Source: an uncultured bacterium (GTDB lineage Bacteria > Krumholzibacteriota > Krumholzibacteriia > JACNKJ01). From it: a stretch of 64,000 nt of DNA. Position numbers and translations under genes: made by a program. The notes beneath the pieces were generated by a model. The model worked only from the letters and a program-made list of their open reading frames with translations, searched no databases and was not told the origin of the DNA. Of the stretch, positions 1 through 35,206 are shown piece by piece. The DNA lies in the NCBI GenBank assembly GCA_964344565.1, contig CAYFNT010000012.1, forward strand, positions 30,648-94,647. Direction: 5' to 3'. How positions within the stretch are numbered: the stretch's first letter is position 1; the number at the start of each line of letters is the position of its first letter.

Positions 1-596
1 ATCACGCCTGAGATCGACTTGAGAGGTTCCATCAGAAAACTCGGACGAAGGGTGATGCCCACCCGGCCCGGATCGAGAGCCTCGAAGAGCTTGCCCTGTC
101 CGCTCACGTGCCATCCGCAGTAGCCCGGCGAGTAGCGCAGGCATCGGTTCTCGGCATCGTGGGCCCCGCTTCCGTTCCAAACCCGCTGAGCTTCCGCCTG
201 CAGGCGCGTCGCCGCGATTTCGGCACCCTCCGACGCGGCGCTGTCCAGCATGGAGGCCAGGGGGAACTCTCGATCCTCGAAGAGTTCGTCGATCTTTCCG
301 CTCACCTCGGCGCCCAGGGTGAGTGCGAAGAGGGCCAGGTTCTTCGCTCTTGGATAGATTTCAGCGAGGGGGCTGGACTCCGCGTTGTTCCCGGTTCCGG
401 GGTAGATCTCCGCGAACTCATCTCGGGAGATTTCCTGGAAGGTCCCGCGGCCCTCGGCGCAGCTTCGCAGCAGTTCGAGGGCCTCTTCGGCCAATCCACG
501 AAAGGAGTCCGCCGACCGATGGCCGGGATCGACCCCCTGAGCCCGGAGCAAATCGTCGACGCCGGGGCAGAGCTCCTCGCCGGTCCAGTCCAGCAC
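1..596 (-). CDS. Partial (3' end of window) vitamin-B12 methionine-synthase activation-domain-like protein (Met_synt_B12 family)
   Basis: Minus-strand frame is open from GTG at 596-594 (TAGTG overlap with the stop of the upstream mttB-like gene) to the window edge. The translation ...RCLRYSPGYCGWHVSGQGKLFEALDPGRVGITLRPSFLMEPLKSISGV matches the C-terminal motif block of the MetH reactivation domain (R.APGY...ELL...G.KLTESFAM.P.ASVSG). GC3 is high, consistent with coding. I found it by hand translation; it is absent from the ORF track because it runs off the window. Confidence 0.5.
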   Translation of the reverse strand, partial: MLDWTGEELCPGVDDLLRAQGVDPGHRSADSFRGLAEEALELLRSCAEGRGTFQEISRDEFAEIYPGTGNNAESSPLAEIYPRAKNLALFALTLGAEVSGKIDELFEDREFPLASMLDSAASEGAEIAATRLQAEAQRVWNGSGAHDAENRCLRYSPGYCGWHVSGQGKLFEALDPGRVGITLRPSFLMEPLKSISGV

Positions 597-2062
597 TATC
601 GCCACGGTTCGCGCTCCGGAAGCTTATCCATGCCGTGCCGGCGCGCCTCGGCCTGCATGAGGTCGATCAGTTCATCCTTGGTATCTGCGGGCAGCTCCGT
701 GGGCTGCCAGGCCTCCACCTTGGCCTTCACCTCGGCATTGGCACGCTGGCCCAGGCTGAGCGAGCCCTCCTCCTTCCAGCGGGAGAGGTTGGCGCGCGCG
801 ATGGCGGGGCCGGGCCAGTAGTGCTCCTCGCGCATGTACTTCATGGTGTGCTCGGAAATGAGCAGGTGGCCTTCGGAGAGCATCTCCTCGAAACGCGGAA
901 GGGCGGGGAAGTCCTCTCGAGGCTCCACGCCGCGGATCATTCGCAGGGCCAATCCCGCGATCTCGTTGTCGACCACGAGCTTCTCCAGGCTCTGGCAGCT
1001 CTCGAAGTCGAGCATGCCGGGACCCGAGATGCTGTTCACGCCCGACAAGGCGGCCAGGGTCACGCCCATGGAGCTTTCCAGTCCGGCCTGGGCATCCAGA
1101 TCCTTGGCGTCGCTCAGTCCGATGTAGGCCTGGGTGGGCAGGCCCAGATGCTTGCCGATCTCCGAGTAGGCGCAGTCAATCATCTGGGTCTCCACGGCTC
1201 CCATGGGCGTGGTCTCGTATCGGATATCGAAGGCCGCCGGCGATCCTCCATAGAGCGCGGGACAGCCCGGCGCGGCCAGCTGGCTGATGACGATGCCGCT
1301 GAGGGTTTCGGCGGTGTGCTGCACGATGGAGCCCACCAGGGTGATGGGGGCCATGAATCCCGAGAGCGGCATGGAGATGTACTCCACGGGGATTCCCGCC
1401 CGCGCGCAGTCGATGAGGTTCTGCGAGGTGACCTCGCTCCACTTCAGGGGCGCCGTGGGACAGCAGGAGAAGACCGTCAGGGGCTTCGCGGTCAGCGCCG
1501 CTTCGGATCCGCGCACGGCCAGCTGCAGATTCTTCATCAATTCGAAGGACCCGATGGTGAAGGCGCCGGTGACCACGGGTTTCTCGCCGTAGAGCAGACT
1601 GAGGAAGAGGCGGTAGCTGTCCGAGATTCCTTCCTGAACGTCGGCGGGGATGAAGGCCGTGCTCTGGGCGGCGATGTTGTCCAGGCCCTCCACGAGTTTC
1701 ACGTGACGCACGTAGTCGGCGCTGTCTGGCTTGCGGATCTTCCCGCTCTCGAAATCGAGCAGGTTGATGGCGGCCGAGCCCGGCGTGAAGTGCACATTGT
1801 CCCCGGACATGTCATGGCTGCGCCGTCCGCGGGTATCGAATAACTCGAAAGAGGAGGGGGCGGTGCTCAGCGCCTTGTCGATGAGCTCGCCGGGGAAACG
1901 AACGCGTCCGGCCGCCTCCTCCACCTGGGCGCCGTGGTCGCCCAGGAGCGCTTTGACCTCGTCGTTGTGGATGGCCATTCCCAGCTTCGCGAGGATGTCC
2001 CTCGCCTCGCCGAGAATGCGTTCGATCATGGCCTCGTCGAGAAATCGCAGCTTCGGTCTCAC
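596..2062 (-). CDS. mttB: MttB-superfamily methyltransferase (trimethylamine/glycine-betaine:corrinoid methyltransferase family), non-pyrrolysine type
   Basis: 488-aa ORF with a GTG start at 2062 and an SD GGAAGGAG 7 nt upstream. Full-length similarity to the MttB/MtgB family (e.g. ...CCPTAPLKWSEVTSQNLIDCARAGIPVEYISMPLSGFMAPITLVGSIVQHTAETLSGIV...). There is no in-frame UAG, so it is a Pyl-independent member. Stop TAG at 598-596. Confidence 0.8.
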   Translation of the reverse strand: MRPKLRFLDEAMIERILGEARDILAKLGMAIHNDEVKALLGDHGAQVEEAAGRVRFPGELIDKALSTAPSSFELFDTRGRRSHDMSGDNVHFTPGSAAINLLDFESGKIRKPDSADYVRHVKLVEGLDNIAAQSTAFIPADVQEGISDSYRLFLSLLYGEKPVVTGAFTIGSFELMKNLQLAVRGSEAALTAKPLTVFSCCPTAPLKWSEVTSQNLIDCARAGIPVEYISMPLSGFMAPITLVGSIVQHTAETLSGIVISQLAAPGCPALYGGSPAAFDIRYETTPMGAVETQMIDCAYSEIGKHLGLPTQAYIGLSDAKDLDAQAGLESSMGVTLAALSGVNSISGPGMLDFESCQSLEKLVVDNEIAGLALRMIRGVEPREDFPALPRFEEMLSEGHLLISEHTMKYMREEHYWPGPAIARANLSRWKEEGSLSLGQRANAEVKAKVEAWQPTELPADTKDELIDLMQAEARRHGMDKLPEREPWR

Positions 2063-2113: not shown

Positions 2114-3061
2114 TCAATAGAAGCGGCGCTTCAGTTCACCCCAGGGGAGGTTCTCGCGGACCTCGGGCGCGGAAGTGGGGCCCAGACAACTGACCGGCCA
2201 GGCGCCGATGAGGTCGCAATCCGGGTTCGGCGGCGTATGGGGGCCGCAGGGCGAGCCTTCCCACAGGCCGAAATCGCCCGATTCGGGATAGCAGAACAGG
2301 GGATCCAGTCCGATGTTGCCGTCCACGCCCAGGAGTTCGGCCAGGGGACCGATCCAATTGCCGTCGGGATTGCCAAAGAGATCGCAGCACTCCATCTGCG
2401 GAGCGCTCTCGCAGAGGATCGCTTCACTGCCCGTATTGTGCATGAAGATGCAATTCTCGAAGGTGTAGTCATCTCCCTCGTGCAGATTCACCGCGGCTCC
2501 GAGATTGCTGCTGTTGCCGTAGAAGCTGCAGTTCCGGAAATCCGCGGAACCGTTGATGTCGGCCACCGCGCCGCCGAGCTCCGCCGCGTTGCTCCAGAAA
2601 GTGCAGCCCTCGAAGCGTGCATGGGAGTCGTCGATGGCGACGGCGCCGCCCAGAAGGGCTGAGTTCTCTTCGAAGACGCAATCGCGGAAGACCAGGTCTT
2701 CGCATCTCCAGATGGTCGCTCCGCCGCCGTCGTTGGCCACGCCGCCCTTGATGGTGATGCCCTCGATGATCGTGGGGGCGCCCGACAGCTCGTAGCAGAT
2801 CAGGGCGTTTCCCTGATTCCAGGCATCGACGATCACGCAGGACGGATCGCCGGTCTCGCTGCGCAGGGTGATGCCCGAGTCCATGTTGATCATCCAGGTC
2901 TGGTAGTAGCCGCAGGCGATGAGCACGGTGTCGCCGGGCTCGGCCACCATGATGCCGGCCTGGATGCTGGGAATCTCCCCGGGTACGTGAATGGTGTCGG
3001 ATGTAGCCGGAAGGATGATGAGCAGGGCCGCGAGGGCCGTGATGCATGCGCGCTGGGACAT
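2114..3061 (-). CDS. Secreted right-handed parallel beta-helix repeat protein, paralog 1, with Cys-rich C-terminal module
   Basis: The real start is ATG at 3061 (MSQRACITALAALLIILPATS signal peptide; SD AGGAGGA). The upstream extension of ORF 2114..4174 has no protein-like features. PbH1-like repeats (GGA[VI]..D...[FS]..C.F..N). The C-terminal block CCDLFGNPDGNW...DPLFC...SPC...DC.LIG...C...W..LKRRFY is shared with paralogs 2 and 3. Confidence 0.6.
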   Translation of the reverse strand: MSQRACITALAALLIILPATSDTIHVPGEIPSIQAGIMVAEPGDTVLIACGYYQTWMINMDSGITLRSETGDPSCVIVDAWNQGNALICYELSGAPTIIEGITIKGGVANDGGGATIWRCEDLVFRDCVFEENSALLGGAVAIDDSHARFEGCTFWSNAAELGGAVADINGSADFRNCSFYGNSSNLGAAVNLHEGDDYTFENCIFMHNTGSEAILCESAPQMECCDLFGNPDGNWIGPLAELLGVDGNIGLDPLFCYPESGDFGLWEGSPCGPHTPPNPDCDLIGAWPVSCLGPTSAPEVRENLPWGELKRRFY

Positions 3062-3226
3062 CCCAATCCTCCTGAGGTATCGCTCCCAATTCCCACTAAA
3101 CATGGATTTTACATGATCGTGCCAGATAATACTAGACCCCTTGGTGTTGATCATGGAGGATTCTCGAAGAGAAGATTTCGAAGGATCGTGGTGTCCGCTC
3201 AGGGAACTCATCCCAGGAGGTGGAGG

Positions 3227-4888
3227 ATGGAAAGTCGCAGAAACGAGATGGTATTCGGACCTCTGGCGTTTTTCATCGGGGTCGTTCTCTTCCTGCTTCA
3301 ATTCCCTTCCGAGGCTTGGGGCGATCGATTCGACTTCGAGTACAACACCTCCGGAGTCCTGGACCAGAAGCACGATAGCTGGATGGGTGGCGATTACATC
3401 GTCGCGACCATCGAAAACAAGTCGGGTCAATGGCTCAGACTGCGTGAGCTTTCGCTGCCCCTGGGCGTCGATACGCGACTCGATTCCGAGTGGATCGTGT
3501 TCCTGAACGTGCCTTCCGGAGATCCCCCCGGAAATCCCGAGTTCGCGGACTACTCCGGTACCTTCGATCCGGACACGCCACCGCCAGCCTACACCGACAT
3601 CGATCTCTATCCCCATGGCATCCTGGTGGAGCCCGGCACTGCCTTCTCCGTCGGCATCCGAAGCGCCTACATTCCCTACGATCTCTATGTAGGCACCGTC
3701 AAAGCGACCTTTTCCGCCTATACCTTCCGCTGGATCCCGAGGGGCTGGGAATCTCTGGAAGGGGTGCACGCAGTCACGGCCCTGATCCAGGTCTATGCGG
3801 ACTACGTGGACATGTCCGACATCCTCGTCTTTCCGGACGGCAGCGGTCTTTTCCCGACCATCCAGCACGCCATCGCGGCGGTGGATTTTGGCGGCACCGT
3901 ACGACTGGCCGACGGTGTTTTCAAAGGCGAAGGCAACAGCAAGCTGACCTTCTTCGGCAAGGACCTGACCCTGAAATCGGTCTCGGAAGATCCGAAGACC
4001 TGCATCATCGACTGCGAAGGGGATCTGCCCCTTTCGGGGCCATCTACCGGCACGGGCATCATCTTCAACGAGGGCGAAGGTCCCGGTGCGGTGGTGAGCG
4101 GCATCACCATTCGCAATGGAGTCTTCGAAGTGGGGGCCGGCATCCTGGTGGACAACTCCTCCCCGGTCATCCACAACTGCGTCTTCGAGAACGGATTCTC
4201 CGCCGCCGGCGCGGGAGTCTACGTCTACAAGGGATCGCCTGAGATCGTCGCTTGCGTGTTCCGCGACAACTACGCGGAGTGGTCGGGCGGCGGTCTGCAG
4301 ATGGAGTTATCCGACGGCGTGGTCTCGCACTGCCGATTCGAGAGGAACCACGCCGGCAATTACGGGGGCGGCGCGCTCTTCGGCGATTGCGACGGCACGA
4401 GCCTCGAGCACTCCGTGTTCTACGCGAATTGGTCGGATATCTACGGAGGAGCGCTGCTTCTCGGAGGCACCGCCATTTCCATGAGCCAGTGCACTCTGTC
4501 GGAGAATTCGGCGCCCAAGGGAAGCGCCATCTACTTGGAAGGCCAGGGCCCTGACATCTGGATGAGCATCCTCAGCTTCGGAGACTCTCCGCCCCTCTTC
4601 ATCGACGGGCCCCGATCCGTTCCGGATTTCGTCTGCTGCGACATTTTCGGCAACACCGGCGGAGATTGGGTAGGAGAGATCGCAGATCAGCTGGGCACCG
4701 ACGGCAACTTCAATCTCGATCCCCAGTACTGCGGCGAACTGGGCACGGGGGATCTGACCCTCCAGGACGATTCGCCTTGCGGGCCCGGCGGCAACGACTG
4801 CGGTCTTCTCATCGGCGGCGAAACCGTGGAATGCGACGACACCGTTGCGGCCCCGACCACATGGAGCAGATTGAAACAGCTTTATTGA
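3227..4888 (+). CDS. Secreted right-handed parallel beta-helix repeat protein, paralog 2, with Cys-rich C-terminal module ending WSRLKQLY
   Basis: Start ATG 3227 (MESRRNEMVFGPLAFFIGVVLFLLQFPSEAWG signal peptide, SD AGGAGG). ORF 2987 is an upstream extension. Beta-helix repeats (NCVFENG.SAAGAGVYVY.GSPEI..C.F..N...). The C-terminal 85 aa align with paralog 3 at about 80% identity. Confidence 0.7.
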   Translation: MESRRNEMVFGPLAFFIGVVLFLLQFPSEAWGDRFDFEYNTSGVLDQKHDSWMGGDYIVATIENKSGQWLRLRELSLPLGVDTRLDSEWIVFLNVPSGDPPGNPEFADYSGTFDPDTPPPAYTDIDLYPHGILVEPGTAFSVGIRSAYIPYDLYVGTVKATFSAYTFRWIPRGWESLEGVHAVTALIQVYADYVDMSDILVFPDGSGLFPTIQHAIAAVDFGGTVRLADGVFKGEGNSKLTFFGKDLTLKSVSEDPKTCIIDCEGDLPLSGPSTGTGIIFNEGEGPGAVVSGITIRNGVFEVGAGILVDNSSPVIHNCVFENGFSAAGAGVYVYKGSPEIVACVFRDNYAEWSGGGLQMELSDGVVSHCRFERNHAGNYGGGALFGDCDGTSLEHSVFYANWSDIYGGALLLGGTAISMSQCTLSENSAPKGSAIYLEGQGPDIWMSILSFGDSPPLFIDGPRSVPDFVCCDIFGNTGGDWVGEIADQLGTDGNFNLDPQYCGELGTGDLTLQDDSPCGPGGNDCGLLIGGETVECDDTVAAPTTWSRLKQLY

Positions 4889-4923
4889 GATCGGGATGAA
4901 GTCACTCGACCCGGGAGGTGGTC

Positions 4924-6615
4924 ATGGAGGATCGCTCTCGCCCTAGTCTTCCCCTTTGTATGCTGTCCTTGTTGATTCTGCTCGTTCTCATCCCATCCCT
5001 CTCCTGGGGCGAGGTCGTGCAGCTTTCCTCCGGGTCGCCCGAATCGGCGGATGCTCCGCGTGAGCTCCGCTGGGATTTCGAGCACAACACCTCCGGCGTG
5101 CTCGACATGGACGCCACCCACGTCGGAAATGGAAGCAGCTGGCAGGAAGTCACGGCCACCATTCACAACGATTCGGGTCATTGGCTGAGGCTGAGGGAAC
5201 TGTCCTTCCCGGCCATGATCATGGATTGGAAGGGCGAATGGCACTGGCATATCTGGACAGGCATGTCCGGTCCCGGGCCGCCGCCCACAGAACCCGGCAG
5301 TCCTGATTTCACCGGCAGCTTTCCGCCCCCCGAGGGGATCTGGGACTACACCGTCCTGCCTCTGGATGCCTGGGAGATCTACATCGCCCCGGGCGAGTTT
5401 TTCTCCGCGGGATACGGATCCCCGGAAGGCCACCGTGGCCTACGCGACGTGGTCACCGGCGATACCTACAATTGGTGGAACGATGACTGGCAAAGATGCG
5501 AGAACAACGGCTACACGCTGCTGATTCAGATCATGGCCGAGTATGTGGACACGGGCGAGATCGTCGTCTATCCCGACGGTACGGGCCTCTACCCGACCAT
5601 CCAGAAGGCCATCGACGCAGTGCTGCCCGGCGGTACCGTGCTGCTGGCCGACGGAGTGTTCAGCGGTCCGGGCAACATCGACCTGGACTTCGGCGGGAAG
5701 CACCTGACCCTGAAGTCCGTCTCGGAAGATCCATCGACCTGCATCATCGATTGCAGCGACCCACCTCGCGGACGCGAAGCGAGAGGACTGCGTTTCGTTT
5801 CCGGGGAAGGGCCCGATGCGGTGGTCGAATACATCAGCGTGCTCAACGGATGGACCGAAGGCGGACCGGGGATCCGGATCTCGAACAGCTCGCCCACGAT
5901 CCGACACTGCGTATTCGACAACGGATACTGCATCGATGGGGGAGGAATCCTGATCAACAAGGGCTCACCCGAAATCGTCGGATGCACATTCCTGAATGGG
6001 GATGCGGGATACGGGGGAGGCATCCTTTCCCGCTTGGCCTCGCCCAGCATTCGCCATTGTCGATTCGAATCCAATCAGGCGGGTGTCGCGGGAGGCGCCA
6101 TCTACATGGTCGGCTGTCCGGATGCGCTGATCGAGCACTGCGTCTTCTACGACAATACAGCCAAGGACGGCGCGGGCATCTTCCTGGGGAACTCGCCCCT
6201 GCAGATCACCTCCTGCACCTTCGCGGAAAACGAAGCCGCGAACGGAAGCGGAATCTTCGTGGAAGGTGAGGGCCCCGAAATCTGGACGAGCCTCATCGTA
6301 TTCGGACAAGGCGATGCCCTTTACTGCGTTCCCAACGGACGAGCCCTGCCCGAACTCGTATGCTGCGACCTCTTCGGCAACACCGGAGGAGACTGGACCG
6401 GGTGCATCGCGGACCAATGGGGAGTCGACGGTAACTTCAGCGACGATCCACAGTTCTGCGGTGAACTGGGCACGGGAAACCTGACCCTGCAAGATGACTC
6501 CCCCTGCGCTCCCGGCGGCAACGGCTGCGGCCTGCTCATCGGCGGCGAAACCGTGGAGTGCGATGACACCTACGCCGCTGCGACCACATGGAGCAGATTG
6601 AAACAACTCTACTAG
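4924..6615 (+). CDS. Secreted right-handed parallel beta-helix repeat protein, paralog 3, with Cys-rich C-terminal module ending WSRLKQLY
   Basis: ATG 4924 preceded by GGGAGGTG (ORF-track start 4918 is a GTG two codons upstream). Signal peptide MLSLLILLVLIPSLSWG. Collinear with paralog 2 across the N-terminal domain (WDFEHNTSGVLD...WLRLRELSFP), the beta-helix region and the C-terminus. Confidence 0.7.
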   Translation: MEDRSRPSLPLCMLSLLILLVLIPSLSWGEVVQLSSGSPESADAPRELRWDFEHNTSGVLDMDATHVGNGSSWQEVTATIHNDSGHWLRLRELSFPAMIMDWKGEWHWHIWTGMSGPGPPPTEPGSPDFTGSFPPPEGIWDYTVLPLDAWEIYIAPGEFFSAGYGSPEGHRGLRDVVTGDTYNWWNDDWQRCENNGYTLLIQIMAEYVDTGEIVVYPDGTGLYPTIQKAIDAVLPGGTVLLADGVFSGPGNIDLDFGGKHLTLKSVSEDPSTCIIDCSDPPRGREARGLRFVSGEGPDAVVEYISVLNGWTEGGPGIRISNSSPTIRHCVFDNGYCIDGGGILINKGSPEIVGCTFLNGDAGYGGGILSRLASPSIRHCRFESNQAGVAGGAIYMVGCPDALIEHCVFYDNTAKDGAGIFLGNSPLQITSCTFAENEAANGSGIFVEGEGPEIWTSLIVFGQGDALYCVPNGRALPELVCCDLFGNTGGDWTGCIADQWGVDGNFSDDPQFCGELGTGNLTLQDDSPCAPGGNGCGLLIGGETVECDDTYAAATTWSRLKQLY

Positions 6616-6705: not shown

Positions 6706-7917
6706 ATGCGTCCTGCGCAGCTCAAATCGATCCTCGCAGTCGCCCTCCTGGCGACCTTCGCGATCCTGCCCCTCAGGATCGACGTCGAGCCCGACGCCTC
6801 CGACCCGATTCCGAAACTCCCAGCCCATCACAACTGCCGTTTCTGGGGGGGCGTCTCCACGGTGCTCGACTCGCTCATGCTCCACGACCAGATCATCGTG
6901 CAGCCCCAGTCCCTCGAGAATCTCAGTCCCAGCAATCCCAACGGATGGGCGCTCGCACATTTCCCGGGAGAGGGCGAGCATCCGGTGATCCGGCGCGGAC
7001 CCCACCCGGCCATCGAGGATCCTCTCTACGACATGGCCGTGGCGAGGGCCGGCGCCGATTCGGCGCGCATCGTCATCGGACACGTGCGCAACTGCACCAG
7101 CGGACTCTGCGACATTCCCAATCCCCATCCATTCTATCGATTGTTCGGAGGGAAGCACTGGTTCCTGGGGCACAACGGCAGCATCGACAAGGAAGTGCTC
7201 CTGGACCTGATCCGCCCCGACTTCCTGGCGGCCAATCCGCCGGTGAACGGCTCGGACTTCGAGGAGTGGGTCGACAGCGAGCTGTACTTCCTCTATATCC
7301 TCCAGACCCTCGAGGACCACGACTGGCAGATGGCGCCGGCTCTGGGCGAGGTGGTGGAGTGGCTCAGGGTTCGCATCATCGGCGACATCGAGCAGCTCAA
7401 TTTCGTCATGACCGACGGTGAGACCCTCTGGGCCTATCGCGAAGGCATCGCCCTCTTCTACCACTTCAACACCGACGGCATCGTCCACTCGGCGGTGGCC
7501 TCCAAGCATCCCCCCGAGGAGCAGGGTCCCTGGACCGAGATGGTGGACGGCCAGCTCATCACCCTGCGGCGGGGCATTCCGCCCATCCTGCAGAACGTGG
7601 AGGATTTCTTCACCCACACCCAGGCCGGCGAAACTCCCCTGCCGTCGGCGAAGCTTTCGGCCTGGCCCAATCCCTTCAATCCCAGCACCACTCTGCGCTG
7701 GACCCTGCCCGAGCGGGTCCATTGCCGGGTGAGCATCCACGAGGTGAGCGGCCGGGAAGTGGCCGAACTGGCCGAGGGCGTCATGGAGGCGGGGGAGCAC
7801 GAGCGGGGCTGGACGGCCCGGGACGAGCGGGGCCGGCCCCTCTCCAGCGGGGTCTATATCCTGCGGCTCAGGGCGGGACAGCTTTCCGCCTCCGAGAAGC
7901 TCGTTCTTCTTCAATAG
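6706..7917 (+). CDS. Secreted class-II glutamine amidotransferase-like Ntn hydrolase (YafJ/GATase_4-6 type) fused to a T9SS type-A C-terminal sorting domain
   Basis: Signal peptide MRPAQLKSILAVALLATFAILP. Candidate nucleophile Cys in HHNC|RFWGG, then WALAHFP, VIGHVRNCTSGLCDIPNPHPF and FLGHNGSI motifs collinear with E. coli YafJ. C-terminal 85 aa: WPNPFNPSTTLRWTL...SGVYILRLRAGQLSASEKLVLLQ (Por_Secre_tail / T9SS type-A CTD). Confidence 0.7.
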   Translation: MRPAQLKSILAVALLATFAILPLRIDVEPDASDPIPKLPAHHNCRFWGGVSTVLDSLMLHDQIIVQPQSLENLSPSNPNGWALAHFPGEGEHPVIRRGPHPAIEDPLYDMAVARAGADSARIVIGHVRNCTSGLCDIPNPHPFYRLFGGKHWFLGHNGSIDKEVLLDLIRPDFLAANPPVNGSDFEEWVDSELYFLYILQTLEDHDWQMAPALGEVVEWLRVRIIGDIEQLNFVMTDGETLWAYREGIALFYHFNTDGIVHSAVASKHPPEEQGPWTEMVDGQLITLRRGIPPILQNVEDFFTHTQAGETPLPSAKLSAWPNPFNPSTTLRWTLPERVHCRVSIHEVSGREVAELAEGVMEAGEHERGWTARDERGRPLSSGVYILRLRAGQLSASEKLVLLQ

Positions 7918-10356: not shown

Positions 10357-13300
10357 TCAGCTCCTCACCTTGCTGACCTCGCCGAGCTTCACCCGGACCC
10401 GGTGCTTGGCGCCGTCGTCCTCCAGGGGCAGGACGTCATCCTGCAGACTCCGGCCGTCCAACTCGATGGACTCCACCCGGCCGCTTCCCTCGACCTCGAT
10501 CTCGTAGATGGCCCGCCCGAAGCGGTAGGAAAGCTTGAAGCCCTTCCATTCGGCCGGGATGCTCGGGGACAGGCGCAGGCGCGAACCGGCCAGATCCAGT
10601 CCGAGCACGTCCTCCAGCCAGACGCGGAAGTACCAGCTGGCGGCGCCGGTGTACCAGGACCATCCGCCCATGCCCAGGTGTCCCTCGAGGCGATAGACGT
10701 CGGCGGCGATGACGTAGGGCTCCACCCGATAGCGGTGGGCGCTCTCGCCGTCGTAGGCGTGGCTGATGGGATTGAGCAGGTCGAGGATCTCCACGGCCTC
10801 CTCGCCCCGTCCCCGCAGGGCGAAGGCCTTGGCCAGCCAGGTGGCGGCGTGGGTGTACTGTCCGCCGTTCTCCCGCACGCCCGGCGGATAGCTCTTGATG
10901 TAGCCCGGGTCCATGTCCCACTTCTCGAATGGGGGCGCGAAGAGAAGCACCAGTCGGTCCTCCCGGCGCACCAGTTCCTCCCGCGCCGAATCCAGGGCGC
11001 GGTCGGTGCGTTCCGGATCGCCGAGTCCCGAGATGGCGGCCCAGGACTGGCTGAGGGAATCCAGGCGGGCCTCCTCGCTCCACTTGGAGCCGAGGGGAGT
11101 GCCGTCGTCGAAGAAGGCGCGCAGGTACCAGTCGCCGTCCCAGGCGCTCTTCTCCACGTTGGCGGCGAGCTGTTGCGCGCGACCGAGGTAACCTTCGGCC
11201 TCGTCCTCCCGGCCGAGGCGCCGGCAGATGCGCGCGAAACTCTGCAGCACGTCGCCGAGGAACCAGGCCATCCAGACGCTCTCACCCTTGCCGCCGATTC
11301 CCACGCGATTCATGCCGTCGTTCCAGTCTCCGCTGCCCATGAGGGGCAGTCCGCGCTCGCCGAGGTTCAATCCCTTCTGGATGGCCAGACGGCAATGCTC
11401 GAAGAGGGTGGCGCTCTCCACGGTCTCTGCGGGCTGCACGAAGATCTCGTGCTGCTCCTTGGTGAGAGGCGCGGCCTCCAGGAAGGGCACCTGTTCGTGG
11501 AGAATGGCCTCGTCGTCCATCATTTCCACGTAACGCGCCGTGACGTAGGGCAGCCAGAGCAGGTCGTCCGAACAGCGGGAACGGATGCCCGCGCCGCTCT
11601 GGGGATGCCACCAGTGCTGCACGTCGCCCTCCCGGAACTGGCGCGCGGCCGCACGGAGGATCTGCTCGCGCACGAGCTGGGGCGAGTTGTGCAGCAGGGC
11701 CATGGAATCCTGGAGCTGGTCGCGGAAGCCCACCGCGCCGCCGGACTGATAGAGGGCCGAGCGTCCCCAGATGCGGCAGCTCAAGGCCTGATAGGGGAGC
11801 CAACGATTCAGCATGATGTTCGCGCGATCGTCGGGGGTCTCCACCTGCACGGAGCCCAGGAGCTTGTCCCACCAATCGGTGGTGGCCTCGTAGCTCTCCG
11901 CCCGCCTCTGCGCGTCGGCGAAGCGGGCGACCAGAGCCATGACCTCTTCCCTGGACGCGCCCTGTCCGAGGAGGATGCAGAGCTCCCGGTCCTCGCCCGG
12001 ATCCAGTTCGAGGCTCAGCTGCATGGCGGCGCAGGGATCCAGGCCCGCGCCCGTGCGCCCCGAAAGTCCCTCGCCCTTCAGCGCGGCGGGGTCGGCCGGG
12101 CGACCGTTGCGGCCCAGGAACTCCACCCGGTCGCCCGTGTGATGCTCGGCCCGCGGGCTCATGGCCGCGAAGGCGAGGCGATGTCCGAAATCGGAATGGT
12201 AGCGGTTCCTCGCGAAGAGGATGCCCGCCTTCTCTTCCCACTGGGTGACCACGTGCAGCTGGGTGTCCTCGCGGTTCTCGCCGAGGGTCCACTCGGTGTA
12301 GTAGGTCACCGAGAGCTTGCGGCGACGGCCGCTGTTGTTGCGAAGCCGCAGTCGCTGCACGCGCAGGGGCAGTCCTCCGGCGTCGTCCATGGGCACGAAG
12401 GTGAGCAGGTCCTGCTCGATGGCGTGGCTGTTGTGCTCGAAGCGGGTGTAGCCCGCTCCGTGTCGGATACGGTAGGGCTCGATCTCGCGGATGGGCAGGG
12501 GAGTGGGGGACCAGAGCCGTCCCGACTCCTCGTCGCGAATGAAGATGGCGTCGGAGGGAGGATCCGAAACGGGATCGTTGGCCCAGGCGTTCAGACGATT
12601 CTGCTGGCTGTTGCCGAACCAGCAGAATCCGCCGCCCGACTCGCTCACCATGGCGCCGAACTCGGGATTCGCCATCACGTTCACCCAGGGCGCGGGGGTC
12701 TGCTCGCCCTCGTTCAGGGTGATCACGTACTCGCGCCCGTCTGGAGTGAAACCGCCCAGGCCATTCTCGTGGACGAGTTCCTGATAGGGCAACTTGAAGG
12801 AGGGTTCTTCGGGCAGGGTCTTGAAGCTGCGGGGAGCCGTCTCCGCGCTCCATTTCACGGGCAGGCCGAACTGCTGGGGCAGGGGACCGCGGGCCGCCAC
12901 CAGGTGCACGTGGGACGCGGAGAGCAGCAGGTGAAGGTCGTCCTCCGAAAGCTGATCGGCCCTGCGCAGGAAGACGCCGCCGGGGGTGTCCACGCCCGTG
13001 TACATGCTGTTGGCCTGCACCAGGCGCATGAGCTGTTCCTGGAGCGGCTTGTCGTAGCTTGCGCCCTCTTCGTTGAGGATGACCAGATCGGCGACGAGCC
13101 CGTTCTTCCTCCAGTAGTTGTGAGCGAGCAGGAGCTGGCGCACCAGGGACATGTCGCGCACCTGCCCCACGCTCACGGCCACGATGGGCAGGTCTCCCGA
13201 GATGCCGTGGGCCCAGAGGTTCCGCTGGCCCAGGCGGTTCTGCCGCAGACGATCCTCGGGGGCCCGGAACTGTCGGCTGGGATAGAGCACGTGTGCAGCC

Positions 13301-16300
13301 AGCTGCTGGAAGCGGCGGGCCTCGTCGGGCTGGATGCGCAGGTGACGGAGCTGAAGCTGGGCGTGCCGCCAGGCCAGCTCCAGTTCTCGGGCGATGGCCT
13401 TCTCGTCGCCGTAGCGATCCAGGACGGCCAGCACGCCGTCGCGGGTCTCCGAAGCCGCGAGCAGCAGATTGAATCGCACCCGCGCCTGGGGCTCGAGCAC
13501 GATGGACTTGCGCAGGCTGAAGATGGAGTCGAGTACCCGACCCTTGCCGCCGGAAAGGGGCGCGCCCAGTGCGGCAGGATCGGAGGCGTCCCGTCCGCGC
13601 CAGAGGAAGCTGCGACGGTCCGTCTCGTACTGGAGTCCGGCCTCTGTCCGGTGTTCGAAGACCAGACGGTGCCCCGCCCAGATGGCTTCGCCGTCCGCGT
13701 CCTTGGGACGCCGCTGGGCCAGCAGCGCTTCCGCTTCGGGAAGGAATTCCGTTTCCACGAAGAGCTTCGAATAGGCCTGGTGCTGACGATCCGCCCTGTG
13801 CTCGGCCAGGGCGAGTTCGTAGAAGCTCGTGATCTCCAGGCGGCGCGTTGATGCCGTACGATTGCTCAGGGTGATCTGCCGGATTTCGAGATCGTCCTCG
13901 GGCGCCACGATGATCTCGGTCTCGCAGTGGATTCCGTGATCCAGGCGCCGGAATCGCGCGCGATCCGCGGCGAAGTTCACGCTGAACTCCCCGCCCTCAT
14001 CGCCCAGCGGCTGGAAGGTATTGCTCCAGACCTCCCCGCTTTGCTCGTCCCGGAAGAAGCAGAAGCTGCCCCAGTGATCGCGGGTTCCGTCGGCCCGCCA
14101 GCGGGTGAGATTGACGCCGTTCCAGCGCGAGTACCCGCCGCCGGCCGCCGTGAGCATGATGTTCATGTTGCCGTTGCCCAGCAGCAGGGTCTGGGGCGTG
14201 CGCGTGTGGGGCGTCTCGAAGTTGCGGGTGGCCGGAGCCACGTCGGCCGGAAGCATGCGCGTGGCGGTCCACTGGCGCAGGGGAACCTTGTAGAGTGGCG
14301 GAGCCACGGGGATGCGCTCGTAGAGCAGGGGCTCGGTGGCCTCGACCCGTGGATCGGCATGGAAACGATCCTGGAGGATGCCGTCGAATAGGAAGTTGCT
14401 CAGGGCCAGGAAGCCCATGGCCTGATGATGGATCATGTAGGCGTGCACCACCACGCCGTGTTCTCCGGCCCGGCGTCGCTGGCGTCCGTAGTCGATGGAT
14501 TCGAAGAAGCCGTAGTGCCCGTAGAGGTCGTTGGCCTCCAGCTTGCGCAGGTTGGCGATGGACTCCTTGGGCTTGAAGGGCACGGCCAGCAGGGTCGAAT
14601 AGGGGGAGACCACGAGGTCATCGTCGAGACCGCGCTTGAGCCCCAGGCCGGGGGAGCCGAAGGCCTTGTACTGATAGGTGTTCTGCGCGTCCAGATCGCT
14701 GAAGGCCGATTCGGAGATTCCCCAGGGCACCTTCTGCTGGTTGCCGTAGTGGATCTGCTGGTCCACCGCGTCGCTGCAGGACTTGTCCAGGAGCGATTTC
14801 TCGAAGACCCGCTGGAAGAGCGTGGGCATGAGGTACTCGAACATGGTGCCGCCCCAGCTGAGCAGCACGCGTTTGCGATTGACCATGCCGTAGGGCCTCG
14901 AAAGGGACAGCCAGTGATCGGCGGGCACGTCGCCCCGGGCGATGGCCACGAAGCTGGTGAGGCGGGCCTCGCTGGCCAGCAGGTCGTAGTAGGAGCCGTC
15001 CAGGGTCTCGTCGCCCACCTTGTAGCCGATGGAGAAGAGGCGCCGCTCGCGATCGTAGAGGAAGCGCATGTTCATGCCCGAGGCGAGTTCCCGCGCGCGC
15101 TCGATGAGGCGCTCGGCCTGCTGCATGCGCAGGGCCGCCCTCTCGTGGCATGCGCGGAAGCTGGCTTCCAGACGTTCGATCCAGCGGCGACTGCTGTCCT
15201 GGATCTCGTCCACCGTGGCCAGGGCGAAGATGCGGTTCAGCGCGGGCACCGAGGTGCTGGCCAGTTCGGCCATGGAGGGCGCATGGTCGAGCAGGGCTTC
15301 CCAGTCCGCCTGCCCTTCCTCGCCCAGATGGGGAAGAAGTTCCTGGGGCACTTCGGCCAGCAGTTCCATCCAGGCCAGGTATCGGTCGGCGAGGATGGAC
15401 AGGCTCTCGAGGTCTTCCCGCAGCTTGCCGTTCCAGTAGGACGCCTCGGCCACCTCTCCGCGGCTGCCCATGCCGGCGCCGAGGATCAACTCGCCCGCAT
15501 GGCGCGAGGCCTCGCGGATCTGTCCGAGGCGGCTGAGCAGCTTGCCCGATGGGCGCGAGAGCAGGCGGTCCAGAGCGTCCAGCACCTGCAGGGGTTCGGC
15601 GGCCAGGCGCGAAGGATCGATGCTCTCCATGAGCAGTCGCAGGGAGTCGTTGGGTCCGCTGAAGGAGGCCTCGCGCAGGAGCGGCCGCTCGTAGATCTCG
15701 CGAATGCCGGGACCCAGGGCCCAGAGGCTGCCCAGGAGGTTTCCGCTGTCCACCGTGGACACGTAGCGTGGCTCCAGGGGATGCAGGTCGTTCAAGTCGT
15801 ACCAGTTCAGCAGGTGTCCATGGTAGCGTTCGAGCTTGTCGAGGCTGTCGAAGGTTCTCTCGATGCGATCCACCGCATCGTCGGGGCGGATGAAGCCGAA
15901 GTCCTGGGCGGCCAGGGAGGACAGCATCCAGAGTCCGATGTTGGTGGGACTGGTGCGCATGGCCAGTCCGCCGTCGTAGGAGACCTGGTAGTTGTCCGGC
16001 GGGAGCCAGTGGGTGTCCTCGCCGATGAAGTCGTCGAAGTAGCGCCAGGTGCGGCGGGCGATGCGGCGGAGGTAGAGGTGATCCTGGCGAGAGAGCTTGC
16101 CGAGGGACTCGTTGGTCCGATCGGGACGGTTGAGCCTGAGCGCCAGGACGGGCCCCGCGAACCAGAGTGCCAGGAAGGGCAGGGCGGGCCAGAGGCCGGG
16201 CGCGTCGGTCAGCAGGATTCCGATGAGGAGCAGCAGGGCCAGGGCCGCGCCCACGGCCACGCGAAGGAGGAAGCCGGCCGACTGTCCCCCCGAGTGGGCC

Positions 16301-19365: not shown

Positions 19366-19482
19366 CTCACCTGCCAGATTGCGTGGGAATTCGACGGAAA
19401 GCACTATCGGACGCGATTTTGCGCCATGTCCCCGAAATGAACAAGCTCCAAAACGCCGGGACTCGCCAGGGGGCACGAAAAA

Positions 19483-19503
19483 GGCCCCGGCATCGCCGGG
19501 GCC
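19483..19503 (-). terminator. Rho-independent terminator downstream of tricorn-like gene
   Basis: Perfect 9-bp stem GGCCCCGGC / GCCGGGGCC with a 3-nt loop. On the minus strand it is followed by TTTTTCG. It lies 25 nt after the stop at 19528. Confidence 0.6.
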
Positions 19504-19527
19504 TTTCGCAGCGGGCAAGAATCGGTG

Positions 19528-22500: not shown

Positions 22501-22977
22501 GGCGCGGCCGATGGGCACCTGCATCGCGTCCCCGCCGCGGGCGGGAATCATGTAGATCTCGGGATCGAAGTGTGCGCTGTGACGCGAAGCGCGGAAAAGG
22601 ATCTTCTCGCCGTCGGGCGACCAGCCCACGCAGGTGTCGCCTCCCGGATGCCAGGTCAGGCGTCGAGGCTCTCCGCCTTCCACGGGAATCACGTAGAGAT
22701 CCATGTTGCCGTCGTACTGGGCGGAAAAGGCGATGGTCTTGCCGTCCGGAGAGATGTGGGGGCTGAACTCCCGTCCCTCGTGGGCGGTGATGCGATGGAT
22801 GGATCCCACCCTGTCTCCGTCGATGCGACCGGTCCAGAGATCACCTTCGGCGGTGAAGACCAAGAGGTCTCCGTGGATGTCCGGATTGCCCAGGTAGCCC
22901 GGGCGCGCCCAGGCCGTCAGCGCCGTGGCGAGGATCAGAAGCAAGGCCAGATGGATCCGCATTGAGCCGCTACTCAT
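19528..22977 (-). CDS. Tricorn protease homolog (TolB-like beta-propellers plus PDZ plus S41 C-terminal-processing peptidase domains) with an about 70-aa D/E-rich insertion
   Basis: Signal peptide [20 protein letters not shown]-terminal propeller motifs ([27 protein letters not shown]), PDZ, and S41 core ([16 protein letters not shown]..., [18 protein letters not shown]). Acidic tract [37 protein letters not shown]... at about 21060-21330. The antisense 863-aa ORF is rejected. Confidence 0.8.
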
Positions 22978-23191: not shown

Positions 23192-23261
23192 AATGATCTC
23201 GAAATCGAGGCGGGGTCTTCGATACCGGGCATTCAATACAATCGCAACCAAAGGTCCACCA

Positions 23262-32735: not shown

Positions 32736-33172
32736 CACTTCACCTCCGTGAGCTGGGGGACGGCTCCGATGGGGCCGCGAGGTCCGCTGGCTTCGAGCTG
32801 ATCGCGGAACTCCTGGACCGTTTCGAGGATCCGATCCGCCTTTCCCGGAGGGAAGAAGCGCACCCTGAAACGACTGGATTCCACACCGAGCATGTCCAGC
32901 ATGGGATCCACCCGACCGATGGTGTTCTCGAGCATCGCCGTGCCCGTGCCGTAGTGGCAGTCGCCCTCCTCGCAGGCCGCGATGAAGACGCCGTCGGCGC
33001 CCGACTCGAAAGCCTGCAGCACGAAGGAGGGATGGATGCGCCCCGTGCAAAGACTGCGGAGCACCGCGCTGCCCTCGGGCAGTTCGCGCTCCTCCTCCAG
33101 ACCCAAGGGGAAGCACCACTTGCAGGAGAAGATCATGAGGCGAGGTTTCCAGTTGCCTTCGATGGTTTTCAT
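32735..33172 (-). CDS. mvhD: MvhD/FlpD-like (methyl-viologen-reducing hydrogenase delta subunit family) small Fe-S protein
   Basis: The real start is ATG 33172 (MKTIEGNWKPRLMIFSCKWCFPLG..., SD GGAGGTGA). It shows the MvhD signature with conserved Cys (CKWC...CTGRI...ACEEGDCHY). ATGA overlap with the downstream gene. Confidence 0.7.
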   Translation of the reverse strand: MKTIEGNWKPRLMIFSCKWCFPLGLEEERELPEGSAVLRSLCTGRIHPSFVLQAFESGADGVFIAACEEGDCHYGTGTAMLENTIGRVDPMLDMLGVESSRFRVRFFPPGKADRILETVQEFRDQLEASGPRGPIGAVPQLTEVK

Positions 33173-35169: not shown

Positions 35170-35206
35170 GCTTCCTCCTCAGGCGGCCGGCCGGGCCGGC
35201 GCGATT

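What the first reader, a model, noticed from the sequence alone, without database searches (positions are those of the whole stretch)
2114..6615. Three tandem paralogous secreted beta-helix proteins share a previously unrecognised Cys-rich C-terminal module ending W-x-x-L-K-x-x-[FY]
All three proteins have a signal peptide and a beta-helix body, one on the minus strand and two on the plus strand. They end with an aligned block of about 85 aa: CCD[IL]FGN..G.W.G..A...G.DGN...DP.[FY]C.E.G.G.L.L...SPC.P.....C.LIG...V.C......W..LK..[FY]-COOH. Eight Cys are conserved and the tail is invariant (TTWSRLKQLY in two, LPWGELKRRFY in the third). This is unlike the T9SS type-A or type-B CTDs found elsewhere in this window. 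It is also unlike PEP-CTERM, LPXTG or GlyGly-CTERM sorting signals. It could be a disulfide-knotted anchoring or sorting module. The genes sit next to a T9SS-tagged secreted amidotransferase-like hydrolase. That suggests a shared extracellular function, possibly polymer degradation or surface decoration.
Basis: seen in the sequence. Interest (0 to 1): 0.7.

Follow-up and report, generated by a model that had tools for sequence, protein, structure and literature searches.

The report
Beta-helix cap plus portable tail tag
The 85-residue block is really two things: a cysteine-rich end cap found on thousands of beta-helix proteins, then a ten-residue C-terminal tag (consensus TWGxIKxxYR) that also ends dozens of unrelated exported proteins in Eisenbacteria and allied uncultured phyla and is probably an undescribed sorting or anchoring signal.

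Summary
The three genes and their aligned C-terminal block are real: A 2114-3061 (-), B 3227-4888 (+), C 4918-6615 (+). Six Cys are invariant, not eight. The block splits into two parts.

(1) The ~73-aa Cys-rich part (CCDxFGN...DPxFC...SPC...CxLIG...C) is the folded C-terminal cap of a right-handed beta-helix unit. A profile of it hits 9,313 representative proteins. Most copies are internal and repeated, up to 17 per protein. It is not a sorting signal. No Pfam or NCBIfam model covers it; the only match is sub-threshold DUF5123.

(2) The last 17-23 aa are a flexible linker plus the core [ST]-W-[GS]-x-[ILV]-K-x-x-[YF]-[RK]-COOH. About 13 matches were expected by chance, and a viral control gave 1. 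Nearly all hits were Eisenbacteria, Latescibacterota or Krumholzibacteria MAGs. Only 11 of 123 tail-bearing ORFs carry the beta-helix cap, and 107 bodies fall into 67 unrelated clusters (CHRD, NHL, LamG and others). Most have Sec signal peptides. The motif is almost always exactly terminal and its Lys is invariant. Among beta-helix homologs it alternates with the T9SS CTD and never co-occurs with it.

Best reading: a new, portable C-terminal sorting or retention tag. The function is inferred, and the component that reads the tag is unknown.

The parts
2114..3061 (-). Gene A: 315-aa exported right-handed beta-helix protein (signal peptide, helix, cap, tail). It has no extra N-terminal domain.
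   Evidence: ORF. Pfam Beta_helix E 3.7e-10. AF2 pLDDT 91.6. Orthologs of 314-315 aa with the same start.
2186..2407 (-). A: Cys-rich C-terminal cap of the beta-helix (aa 219-292; C225, C226, C257, C272, C282, C292).
   Evidence: Alignment. AF2 block pLDDT 88-98 through about residue 290. Profile hits. Sub-threshold DUF5123 over aa 175-266.
2117..2185 (-). A: flexible linker plus C-terminal tag (aa 293-315, ...PEVRENLPWGELKRRFY-COOH). Core W307-Y315 = nt 2117-2143.
   Evidence: AF2 pLDDT about 58-60, with 296-302 below 50 and a short helix at 307-312. Tail kept in orthologs as WGDLKSRFY and WGDLKRRFY while the linker varies.
3062..3226 (.). Divergent intergenic region between A and B. Presumably holds both promoters; not analysed.
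   Evidence: Gene coordinates. Inference only.
3227..4888 (+). Gene B: 553-aa exported protein (signal peptide, ~150-aa N-terminal beta-sandwich, beta-helix, cap, tail).
   Evidence: Pfam Beta_helix E 1.3e-12 and Chlam_PMP. Same as P0155, 553 aa.
3323..3796 (+). B: N-terminal domain of unknown family. It aligns with the N-terminal domain of C and is absent from A. Boundaries are approximate.
   Evidence: Alignment. No Pfam or NCBIfam hit.
4616..4834 (+). B: Cys-rich beta-helix cap (aa 464-536).
   Evidence: module 464-553 in P0155.
4835..4885 (+). B: linker plus C-terminal tag (aa 537-553, DDTVAAPTTWSRLKQLY-COOH). Core = nt 4862-4885.
4918..6615 (+). Gene C: 565-aa tandem paralog of B with the same architecture (563 aa from ATG 4924 in public gene calls).
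   Evidence: Pfam Beta_helix E 2.5e-17. P0152 100% identical. AF2.
5011..5562 (+). C: N-terminal region with a beta-sandwich-like domain (strands at aa ~62-217). No family assignment.
   Evidence: AF2 strands E62-E217, pLDDT 55-78. No Pfam or NCBIfam hit. Only 4 homologs cover it.
6343..6561 (+). C: Cys-rich beta-helix cap (aa 476-548).
   Evidence: AF2 block pLDDT 81-97.
6562..6612 (+). C: linker plus C-terminal tag (aa 549-565, DDTYAAATTWSRLKQLY-COOH). Core = nt 6589-6612.
   Evidence: AF2 pLDDT about 59-60, helix 558-563..
6706..7917 (+). Neighbour, not part of the module: exported class-II glutamine-amidotransferase-like (Ntn) protein with a FlgD_ig / T9SS type-A-like C-terminal domain. 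It shows that both C-terminal signal types occur in one genome.
   Evidence: Pfam GATase_4 E 1.9e-20, FlgD_ig 6.1e-06, Por_Secre_tail 0.0075. TIGR04183 1.6e-4. Syntenic in L123 and L124.

Best explanation
The block is a composite of two independent elements.

(i) Residues from CCDxFGN to the last Cys (~73 aa) are the folded, probably disulfide-stabilised C-terminal cap of a right-handed beta-helix unit. The unit runs from an N-cap (V-x-PDG-x-G-x-F-PTIQ-x-AI) through PbH1-type coils to the Cys cap. The cap is structural. It occurs wherever such a unit ends, including in the middle of proteins with many units.

(ii) The final 17-23 residues are a flexible linker plus a decapeptide, [ST]-W-[GS]-x-[ILV]-K-x-x-[YF]-[RK]-COOH. 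The window carries the variants TTWSRLKQLY and LPWGELKRRFY. This is a portable C-terminal tag of Eisenbacteria and related FCB-group candidate phyla.

Proposed mechanism. The proteins are exported by Sec, and the body folds in the periplasm. The unstructured linker then presents the free C-terminal decapeptide to an as yet unidentified envelope component. That component either moves the cargo onto or across the outer membrane or keeps it at the cell surface. On this view the tag is an alternative to the ~90-aa T9SS C-terminal domain that homologous proteins carry instead.

Shown: the composite anatomy, portability, strict terminal position, taxonomic restriction, purifying selection, presence of Sec signals, and mutual exclusivity with the T9SS CTD. 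Inferred: that the tag's function is sorting or retention, and that a dedicated reader exists. The confidence of 0.45 is for the full statement including the inferred function; the composite anatomy alone I hold at about 0.9.
For: Cap.
- The profile of the block hits 9,313 representative proteins at E<=1e-3 and 5,482 at E<=1e-10. The match usually covers profile positions 1-75.
- In the top 150 hits plus the query-set member P0001 there are 510 copies, of which only 5 lie within 40 aa of a C-terminus, with up to 17 copies per protein.
- Cys conservation over 457 copies: C7 96%, C39 95%, C54 98%, C61 96%, C71 93%. The tail columns are absent from about 99% of copies.
- In multi-unit proteins the next helix N-cap starts a few residues after the last Cys.
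- AF2 of A and C places the cap in the confident part of the helix (block pLDDT about 81-98). The tail scores about 58-60.

Tail.
- Of 87 homologs with a near-complete cap, 39 end in the tail, 25 carry a Pfam-flagged FlgD_ig/Por_Secre_tail CTD, and none has both.
My arithmetic gives about 13 matches by chance. The same scan of 2.9 million viral contigs gave 1 match.
- Taxa of the 120 loci: 45 Eisenbacteria, 8 Latescibacterota, 7 Krumholzibacteria, 4 Fibrobacteraceae MAGs and 48 unclassified MAGs.
- Positions not fixed by the pattern are also conserved: P at -15 in 66/120, P at -17 in 46/120, L at -3 in 72/120.
- Only 11 of 123 tail-bearing ORFs have the cap next to the tail.
- With the last 25 aa removed, 107 bodies fall into 67 BLASTP-unlinked clusters. 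Pfam bodies include CHRD, NHL and Laminin_G_3.
- 86 of 105 have a signal-peptide-like N-terminus, and only 6 of those 86 have a lipobox-like motif.
- The motif is exactly terminal in 137 occurrences, lies 1-13 aa from the end in 5, and is internal once, in a doubtful ORF.
- Lys is invariant in 39/39 homologs and in 31/31 non-seed tails.
- Orthologs keep the tail while the linker diverges. B versus C tail codons differ at 3 synonymous and 0 non-synonymous sites.
- 21 loci carry two to four tail genes.
- An NHL-repeat tail protein has as its best NCBIfam match ScyF, a PEP-CTERM protein. The same kind of body carries a different sorting tag in another phylum.
Against: - There is no experimental or genomic evidence for a reader. 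No conserved non-cargo neighbour family was found in 120 loci; the recurrent neighbours are T9SS-CTD proteins, Ser/Thr kinases and ABC transporters.
- Nothing suggestive lies in the 64-kb window.
- The tag lacks every architectural feature of established C-terminal sorting signals: no TM helix and no folded domain.
- Ten residues is short for a self-sufficient signal.
- The window's three tails lack the terminal Arg/Lys of the consensus, so they could be a functionally different subclass.
- Signal peptides were judged with a crude rule, not with a trained predictor.
- Per-genome counts and co-occurrence with T9SS genes could not be measured.
Confidence: 0.45

Rival explanations
1. One reading: the whole ~85-aa block is one disulfide-knotted C-terminal anchoring or sorting module.
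For: The block is contiguous and well conserved in the three window proteins and their orthologs. The Cys are conserved.
Against: The Cys-rich part is overwhelmingly internal and repeated, and it lacks the tail in about 99% of copies. The tail occurs without the Cys-rich part on 112 of 123 ORFs. AF2 folds the Cys part into the helix and leaves the tail flexible.
Confidence: 0.03
2. The tag is a covalent-attachment handle. The invariant Lys supplies an epsilon-amino nucleophile, or a recognition point, for a periplasmic transpeptidase. That enzyme would link the cargo to peptidoglycan or another envelope polymer, much as L,D-transpeptidases attach Braun's lipoprotein through its C-terminal ...Y-R-K.
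For: Lys is invariant in 39/39 and 31/31 tails. The aromatic-basic ending (Y-R, Y-K) recalls the Lpp C-terminus YRK; this resemblance is from my own knowledge, not a test. The motif sits strictly at the terminus. The cargo are exported and are not lipoproteins.
Against: In Lpp the attached Lys is the last residue. Here Lys is five residues from the end and the last residue is usually Arg, or Tyr in the window. No L,D-transpeptidase gene is associated in the loci or the window. The resemblance is a four-residue recollection.
Confidence: 0.15
3. The tag is a docking peptide for non-covalent assembly. It would bind a receptor domain on a scaffold or surface protein (cohesin-dockerin-like, or a PDZ-type reader of free C-termini), or it would act as a donor strand to assemble extracellular complexes.
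For: Some beta-helix homologs carry dockerin-like C-termini in the same position. The terminus is free and follows a flexible Pro/Thr linker. Sequence conservation is strong, which points to a specific protein partner. Tagged genes occur in tandem arrays.
Against: No candidate receptor family was found nearby. AF2 predicts a short helix, at low confidence, rather than a strand.
Confidence: 0.12
4. The tag is an in-plane amphipathic membrane anchor, like the C-terminal membrane-targeting sequences of MinD and FtsA. It would hold exported proteins on a membrane leaflet.
For: AF2 predicts a two-turn helix over W..LK..Y. The composition (Trp, Tyr, Lys, Arg) is typical of interfacial peptides (my knowledge).
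Against: The helical hydrophobic moment is not above shuffled controls; 16-34% of shuffles reach it. The near-invariant sequence, with G/S after W and a fixed K, goes beyond what amphipathicity alone requires. Nine residues make a weak anchor.
Confidence: 0.08
5. The tag is a recognition site for an envelope protease (a C-terminal degron or maturation site). It would control turnover rather than location.
For: Envelope PDZ-proteases read free C-termini (my knowledge). A Tricorn-like S41 + PDZ protease gene lies at 19528-22977 in the window.
Against: A degron kept under purifying selection on at least 67 unrelated families of exported proteins is hard to rationalise. The protease gene is not linked to tail genes in the other loci.
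Confidence: 0.05
6. The tail is only a local structural element of each protein (a helix stopper), with no shared function.
For: It directly follows the last Cys of the cap in the window proteins.
Against: The same decapeptide with the same linker ends 67 unrelated body clusters. AF2 gives it low confidence and leaves it detached. T9SS-tagged homologs do without it.
Confidence: 0.04

Closest known systems
T9SS type-A C-terminal domain (TIGR04183 / PF18962 Por_Secre_tail; FlgD_ig-like PF13860)
   Same: It sits at the extreme C-terminus of Sec-exported, otherwise unrelated cargo in FCB-group bacteria. It occupies the same place after the beta-helix cap in homologs. It is present in the same genome (window genes 6706-7917, 23193-26627 and 38574-41660).
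   Different: The T9SS CTD is a folded beta-sandwich of about 70-100 aa. The tag is a linear peptide of 10-20 aa. There is no HMM hit and profile-profile probability is 0.8%. The two never occur together.
Tripartite C-terminal sorting signals: PEP-CTERM/exosortase, LPXTG/sortase, GlyGly-CTERM/rhombosortase
   Same: A short signature motif, portable across many unrelated exported proteins, lineage-restricted and present in several copies per genome. An NHL-repeat tail protein resembles the PEP-CTERM protein ScyF.
   Different: Those signals are a motif plus a hydrophobic TM helix plus a basic cluster. Here nothing follows the motif (0-2 residues in 33 of 39) and there is no TM segment. No NCBIfam CTERM model hits. 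No sortase-like partner has been identified.
Right-handed parallel beta-helix proteins: Pfam Beta_helix PF13229, Pel9A-like PF22842, DUF5123 PF17161; PL6/PL9 lyases and pectin methylesterases as structural neighbours
   Same: The bodies of A, B and C pass the PF13229 threshold. The AF2 models are beta-helices. Foldseek finds PL6 alginate lyase 7dmk (TM 0.54), Pel9A 1ru4 and pectin methylesterases. The DPxF...L...SP part of the cap resembles the C-terminal region modelled by DUF5123 (sub-threshold).
   Different: The Cys-rich cap has no above-threshold curated model and no solved-structure relative by sequence. No catalytic assignment is possible, because fold matches have E about 1e-3 and identity of 15% or less.
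Chlamydial polymorphic membrane protein / 'predicted outer membrane repeat protein' repeats (PF02415, TIGR01376)
   Same: B and C score above threshold for the short GGA/FxxN-type repeat. JGI names many homologs this way.
   Different: Pmp proteins are autotransporters with a C-terminal beta-barrel. These proteins end 17-23 residues after the helix cap and have no barrel domain.
Braun's lipoprotein C-terminus (...YRK) attached to peptidoglycan by L,D-transpeptidases
   Same: A short aromatic-basic C-terminal motif with an essential Lys on an envelope protein (my knowledge).
   Different: The Lys is not terminal, the cargo are not lipoproteins, and nothing has been tested. This is a lead only.

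Membership tests
Right-handed parallel beta-helix (Pfam PF13229) | Sequence match above the Pfam gathering score | tested here: met
   A 40.1, B 48.1 and C 63.4 bits against a 25.9-bit cut-off.
Right-handed parallel beta-helix (Pfam PF13229) | Three-stranded coil fold | tested here: met
   AF2 models show regular short strands, with pLDDT 91.6 for A and above 90 across the helix of C. Foldseek top hits are beta-helix lyases and esterases.
DUF5123 (PF17161) | Match above the 35.1-bit gathering score | tested here: not met
   A scores 25.0 bits over aa 175-266. Isolated caps from other proteins score 15-17 bits or nothing.
T9SS type-A CTD (TIGR04183 / PF18962 / FlgD_ig-like) | C-terminal domain of about 70-100 aa that matches the HMM | tested here: not met
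   No hit at E<=1 in A, B or C. The proteins end 17-23 aa after the cap. hhalign of the tail profile against the CTD profile gives probability 0.8%.
T9SS type-A CTD (TIGR04183 / PF18962 / FlgD_ig-like) | Dependence on T9SS machinery (PorU/PorV/SprA) for export and cleavage | not testable with these tools
   No whole-genome access and no experiments.
PEP-CTERM / LPXTG / GlyGly-CTERM type signals | Signature motif followed by a hydrophobic transmembrane helix and a basic cluster | tested here: not met
   By inspection, 0-2 residues follow the motif in 33 of 39 homologs. No NCBIfam CTERM model hits at E<=1.
PEP-CTERM / LPXTG / GlyGly-CTERM type signals | Co-occurring dedicated processing enzyme (exosortase, sortase or rhombosortase) | tested here: inconclusive
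   No such family recurs in 120 8-kb loci or in the window. Such enzymes need not be adjacent, and whole-genome profiling was not possible.
Autotransporter / chlamydial Pmp | C-terminal beta-barrel translocator domain | tested here: not met
   No barrel domain appears in Pfam or NCBIfam. The sequences end right after the cap.
Outer-membrane-protein beta-signal | Terminal aromatic residue with alternating hydrophobic residues at -3, -5 and -7 | tested here: not met
   By inspection. The consensus ends Y-R, not in an aromatic residue. In TTWSRLKQLY, positions -3, -5 and -7 are Q, L and S. The beta-periodicity moment (160-180 degrees) is not above shuffles.
Portable C-terminal sorting tag (generic operational definition) | The same short motif ends many unrelated exported proteins, is strictly terminal, and is lineage-restricted | tested here: met
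   67 unlinked body clusters. 137 exactly terminal occurrences against 1 internal. 86 of 105 have a signal-peptide-like N-terminus. Taxa.
Portable C-terminal sorting tag (generic operational definition) | The tag is necessary or sufficient for localisation | not testable with these tools
   This needs experiments or metaproteomics.

The most novel reading that the evidence does not exclude
The decapeptide [ST]-W-[GS]-x-[ILV]-K-x-x-[YF]-[RK]-COOH is the signal of a protein-sorting or attachment pathway not yet described in Eisenbacteria, Latescibacterota, Krumholzibacteria and their relatives. The pathway would be distinct from T9SS and from the sortase, exosortase and rhombosortase systems. 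It would work with a linear, TM-less peptide, and its invariant Lys would be the recognition or covalent-attachment residue read by a dedicated envelope enzyme.
Probability: 0.3. Interest if true: 0.85.

Novelty: new variant of a known kind. Interest (0 to 1): 0.6.

Why it matters
Portable C-terminal tags have repeatedly led to the discovery of envelope machineries: LPXTG to sortases, PEP-CTERM to exosortases, and the CTD to T9SS.

This tag marks a large and diverse set of exported proteins. They include lectin-like, NHL, CHRD and beta-helix bodies in abundant but uncultured soil and sediment phyla. No Pfam or NCBIfam model covers the tag, and I found no mention of it in the searchable literature.

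Defining the tag gives three things:
- An immediate annotation rule for the secreted or surface proteome of these phyla.
- A handle for phylogenetic profiling to find the component that reads it.
- A case of a sorting-type signal with neither a TM helix nor a folded domain.

Separately, the Cys-rich beta-helix cap is a very common module (more than 9,000 representative clusters) that curated domain databases do not model. A model of it would help delimit the units of giant multi-helix proteins.

Tried and rejected
1. Word-indexed search with the 90-aa block alone found only one protein. The exhaustive profile search was needed.
2. A search of the 5.8-billion-protein database with a tail-only profile failed. 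A 40-aa profile returned only 9 tiny fragments out of 29 candidates, which is uninformative.
3. The PDB sequence search with the block profile gave no hit at E<=10.
4. Foldseek of model A against the PDB returned only generic beta-helix enzymes at E about 1e-3, so no specific enzyme assignment is possible.
5. The tail as a truncated or minimal T9SS CTD: rejected. hhalign gives probability 0.8%, and T9SS-tagged homologs lack the motif.
6. The tail as an amphipathic helix or beta-strand: the hydrophobic moment is not above shuffles.
7. The high B/C similarity as gene conversion: rejected, because there are 28 synonymous differences in 90 codons.
8. Search for a conserved partner gene next to tail genes: none found beyond T9SS-CTD cargo, kinases and ABC transporters. 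None is in the window either.
9. Literature searches for the motif, or for sorting signals in these phyla, found nothing relevant.
10. Origin look-up gave only run accessions (ERR2281802, ERR2281799) and no taxon name. Taxonomy is inferred from the names of homologs and loci.

Full report
**What is in the window.**
The region holds three genes for exported right-handed beta-helix proteins.
- A = 2114-3061 (-), 315 aa.
- B = 3227-4888 (+), 553 aa.
- C = 4918-6615 (+), 565 aa. The public gene call is 563 aa from ATG 4924 (P0152).

A and B are divergent neighbours. B and C are tandem paralogs, about 47-50% identical. A is only about 27-31% identical to them. All three exceed the Pfam Beta_helix threshold, and B and C also match the short Chlam_PMP/POMP repeat. 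Each starts with a Sec-type signal peptide by inspection. B and C have an extra N-terminal region of about 150 aa with no family match, which AF2 models as beta strands at moderate confidence. Six Cys are invariant, not eight. No other ORF in the 64-kb window ends in this motif.

**The Cys-rich part is a beta-helix end cap, not a terminal signal.**
I built a profile from the three window blocks plus one database relative and searched it exhaustively against 1.84 billion representative proteins. It found 9,313 proteins at E<=1e-3 and 5,482 at E<=1e-10.
- The matched stretch normally covers profile positions 1-75, that is up to the last Cys and not the tail.
- In the 150 best proteins plus P0001 I counted 510 copies. 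There are up to 17 per protein at a period of about 270-360 aa, and only 5 copies lie within 40 aa of a C-terminus.
- Over 457 near-complete copies the Cys are conserved at 93-98% (C7, C39, C54, C61, C71), with two further partially conserved Cys. The tail columns are gaps in about 99% of copies.
- In multi-unit proteins the N-cap of the next helix ('...PDGTGDFPTI...') starts a few residues after the last Cys.
- AlphaFold2 of A (pLDDT 91.6) and C (80.6) folds this segment at high confidence with the helix. The residues after the last Cys drop to pLDDT about 58-60, and residues 296-302 of A are below 50.
- Pfam and NCBIfam have no model that reaches threshold on the cap. The only signal is sub-threshold DUF5123. 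No PDB chain matches by sequence.
- Structure search returns generic beta-helix enzymes only: PL6 alginate lyases, pectin methylesterases and Pel9A, at E about 1e-3.

**The tail is an independent, portable C-terminal tag.**
Among 121 proteins examined (the homologs of C listed, plus P0001), 100 have the cap. Among the 87 homologs with a near-complete cap, the sequence after the last cap falls into these classes:
- 39 have a short tail.
- 25 have a Pfam-flagged FlgD_ig/Por_Secre_tail (T9SS type-A-like) domain.
- Most of the rest have an unflagged CTD-like or dockerin-like ending.
- None combines the tail and the CTD.

The tails read [ST]-W-[GS]-x-[ILV]-K-x-x-[YF]-[RK], most often TWGAIKAMYR. 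In 33 of 39, 0-2 residues follow the aromatic residue. The window's WSRLKQLY and WGELKRRFY lie within this continuum.

I then scanned 596 Gb of species-representative genomes for DNA encoding T-W-G-x-I-K-x-x-Y-R followed by a stop codon.
- The scan stopped at its 120-locus limit. My arithmetic for the pattern gives about 13 chance matches in the whole collection.
- The same scan of 2.9 million viral contigs gave a single match, and that one looks genuine.
- The 120 loci are 45 Eisenbacteria, 8 Latescibacterota, 7 Krumholzibacteria, 4 'Fibrobacteraceae' MAGs, 2 Poribacteria, a few singletons and 48 unclassified MAGs.
- Positions the pattern left free are conserved too: Pro at -15 and -17, [TV] at -16 and -14, Leu at -3. 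The consensus is P-[TV]-P-[VT]-x-x-[ST]-T-W-G-x-I-K-[AS]-L-Y-R.
- Only 11 of the 123 ORFs ending in the tag carry the beta-helix cap.
- With the last 25 residues removed, 107 bodies form 67 BLASTP-unlinked clusters.
- Sampled bodies are CHRD, NHL-repeat and Laminin_G_3 domains, and several have no Pfam match.
- 86 of 105 have a signal-peptide-like N-terminus, and only 6 of those 86 have a lipobox-like motif.
- Across all ORFs of the loci the motif is exactly terminal 137 times, lies 1-13 residues from the end five times, and is internal once, in a doubtful ORF.
- The Lys is invariant wherever it was left free: 39/39 and 31/31.
- Twenty-one loci carry two to four tagged genes.

**Selection on the tail.**
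Two related assemblies keep the same gene order: MttB, A-like, one or two B/C-like genes, GATase_4+CTD, a transketolase-like gene and a GH94 giant. They keep the tails (WGDLKSRFY, WGDLKRRFY, WSSLKQLY) while the preceding linkers change. Between B and C the 90-codon block has 28 synonymous and 17 non-synonymous differences. The last nine codons have three synonymous and none non-synonymous. The similarity therefore reflects purifying selection, not gene conversion.

**How it most likely works.**
The shown facts are:
- A Sec signal at one end.
- A folded body.
- A flexible Pro/Thr linker.
- A strictly terminal, strongly conserved decapeptide.
- Portability over unrelated bodies.
- Restriction to one group of phyla.
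- Substitution for the T9SS CTD in homologs.

These are the hallmarks of a C-terminal sorting or retention tag. I infer that an unidentified envelope component reads the free C-terminal peptide and directs or holds the cargo at the cell surface. I put this at about 0.45.

More specific variants are rivals:
- Covalent attachment through the invariant Lys (0.15).
- A docking peptide for a scaffold or receptor (0.12).
- An in-plane membrane anchor (0.08); the hydrophobic moment is not above shuffles.
- A protease recognition site (0.05).

No reader gene emerged from the 120 loci or the window.

**Comparison with known systems.**
- The tag works like the T9SS CTD or PEP-CTERM in its distribution but is a member of neither. 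There is no HMM hit. Profile-profile probability against the CTD is 0.8%. There is no TM helix.
- An NHL-repeat tagged protein has as its best NCBIfam match the PEP-CTERM protein ScyF, which shows the same kind of body carrying a different tag elsewhere.
- I found no mention of the motif in 8 million full texts.

**Verdict.**
The Cys-rich block is a common but uncurated structural cap. The last ten residues are the interesting part: a probable new C-terminal tag of uncultured FCB-group phyla, with function and reader still unknown.

Noticed in passing
window 2114-6615 versus its neighbours: The three beta-helix genes have lower third-position GC (0.70-0.75) than the flanking genes (0.83-0.90) and sit in the lowest-GC stretch of the first 40 kb. 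This could mean different codon usage or expression, or a more recent acquisition.
   Followed up: no
window 3323-3796 and 5011-5562: B and C carry an N-terminal beta-strand domain of about 150 aa with no Pfam or NCBIfam match (AF2 pLDDT 55-78). Only four database homologs share it, and A lacks it.
   Followed up: partly
window 10357-19518 (-): A giant 3,053-aa ORF with Glycoamylase, GH94 supersandwich and GH94 catalytic domains. This is a cyclic beta-1,2-glucan synthase / glucan phosphorylase-like architecture. It is syntenic in related assemblies.
   Followed up: no
window 23193-26627 (+): A 1,144-aa protein that combines a CotH kinase domain, a beta-helix, a lamin-tail domain and a FlgD_ig/T9SS-type C-terminal domain. 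A similar CotH-LTD-CTD protein lies on the other side of the cluster in relatives.
   Followed up: no
window 19528-22977 (-): A Tricorn-like protease (PD40 beta-propellers, Tricorn C1, PDZ, peptidase S41), 1,149 aa. I considered it as a possible reader of C-termini, but it is not linked to tagged genes elsewhere.
   Followed up: partly
window 29095-37825: A cluster of heterodisulfide-reductase-like and MvhD (FlpD) genes, an NAD(P)H-dependent oxidoreductase with Fe-S domains, and pyruvate/2-oxoacid:ferredoxin oxidoreductase subunits.
   Followed up: no
window 38574-62804: A large alpha-glucan utilisation cluster. It includes GH57 enzymes (one with CBM53 and a T9SS-type CTD), a GH13 amylase/pullulanase with CBM48/CBM53, a debranching enzyme (GDE_C), a phosphorylase and an ABC sugar transporter.
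   Followed up: no
L001-L120 (tails of tagged ORFs): About half of the tagged proteins have a Cys 18-20 residues before the C-terminus, just ahead of the Pro/Thr linker (for example ...C-P-T-P-V-E-x-x-T-W-G...), whatever the body type. In the beta-helix proteins this Cys is the last Cys of the cap.
   Followed up: no
L102 (4 genes), L022, L057: Tandem arrays of NHL-repeat proteins that each end in the tag. Their best NCBIfam match is ScyF, annotated as a PEP-CTERM protein, which suggests sorting tags are swapped on the same kind of body between phyla.
   Followed up: partly
L126 (IMG/VR contig IMGVR_UViG_3300045965_000132), 12449-12481 (-): The only match in the viral collection is a genuine-looking tag (...AVPVGATTWGRIKTMYR) on a concanavalin/LamG-like ORF. 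This is either a misclassified bacterial contig or a phage of these phyla carrying a tagged protein.
   Followed up: partly
window 596-2062 (-), L123 and L124 upstream: An MttB-family methyltransferase lies next to gene A. In relatives it is followed by B12-binding, Met_synt_B12 and S-methyltransferase genes, forming a corrinoid methyl-transfer cluster next to the secreted-protein genes.
   Followed up: no
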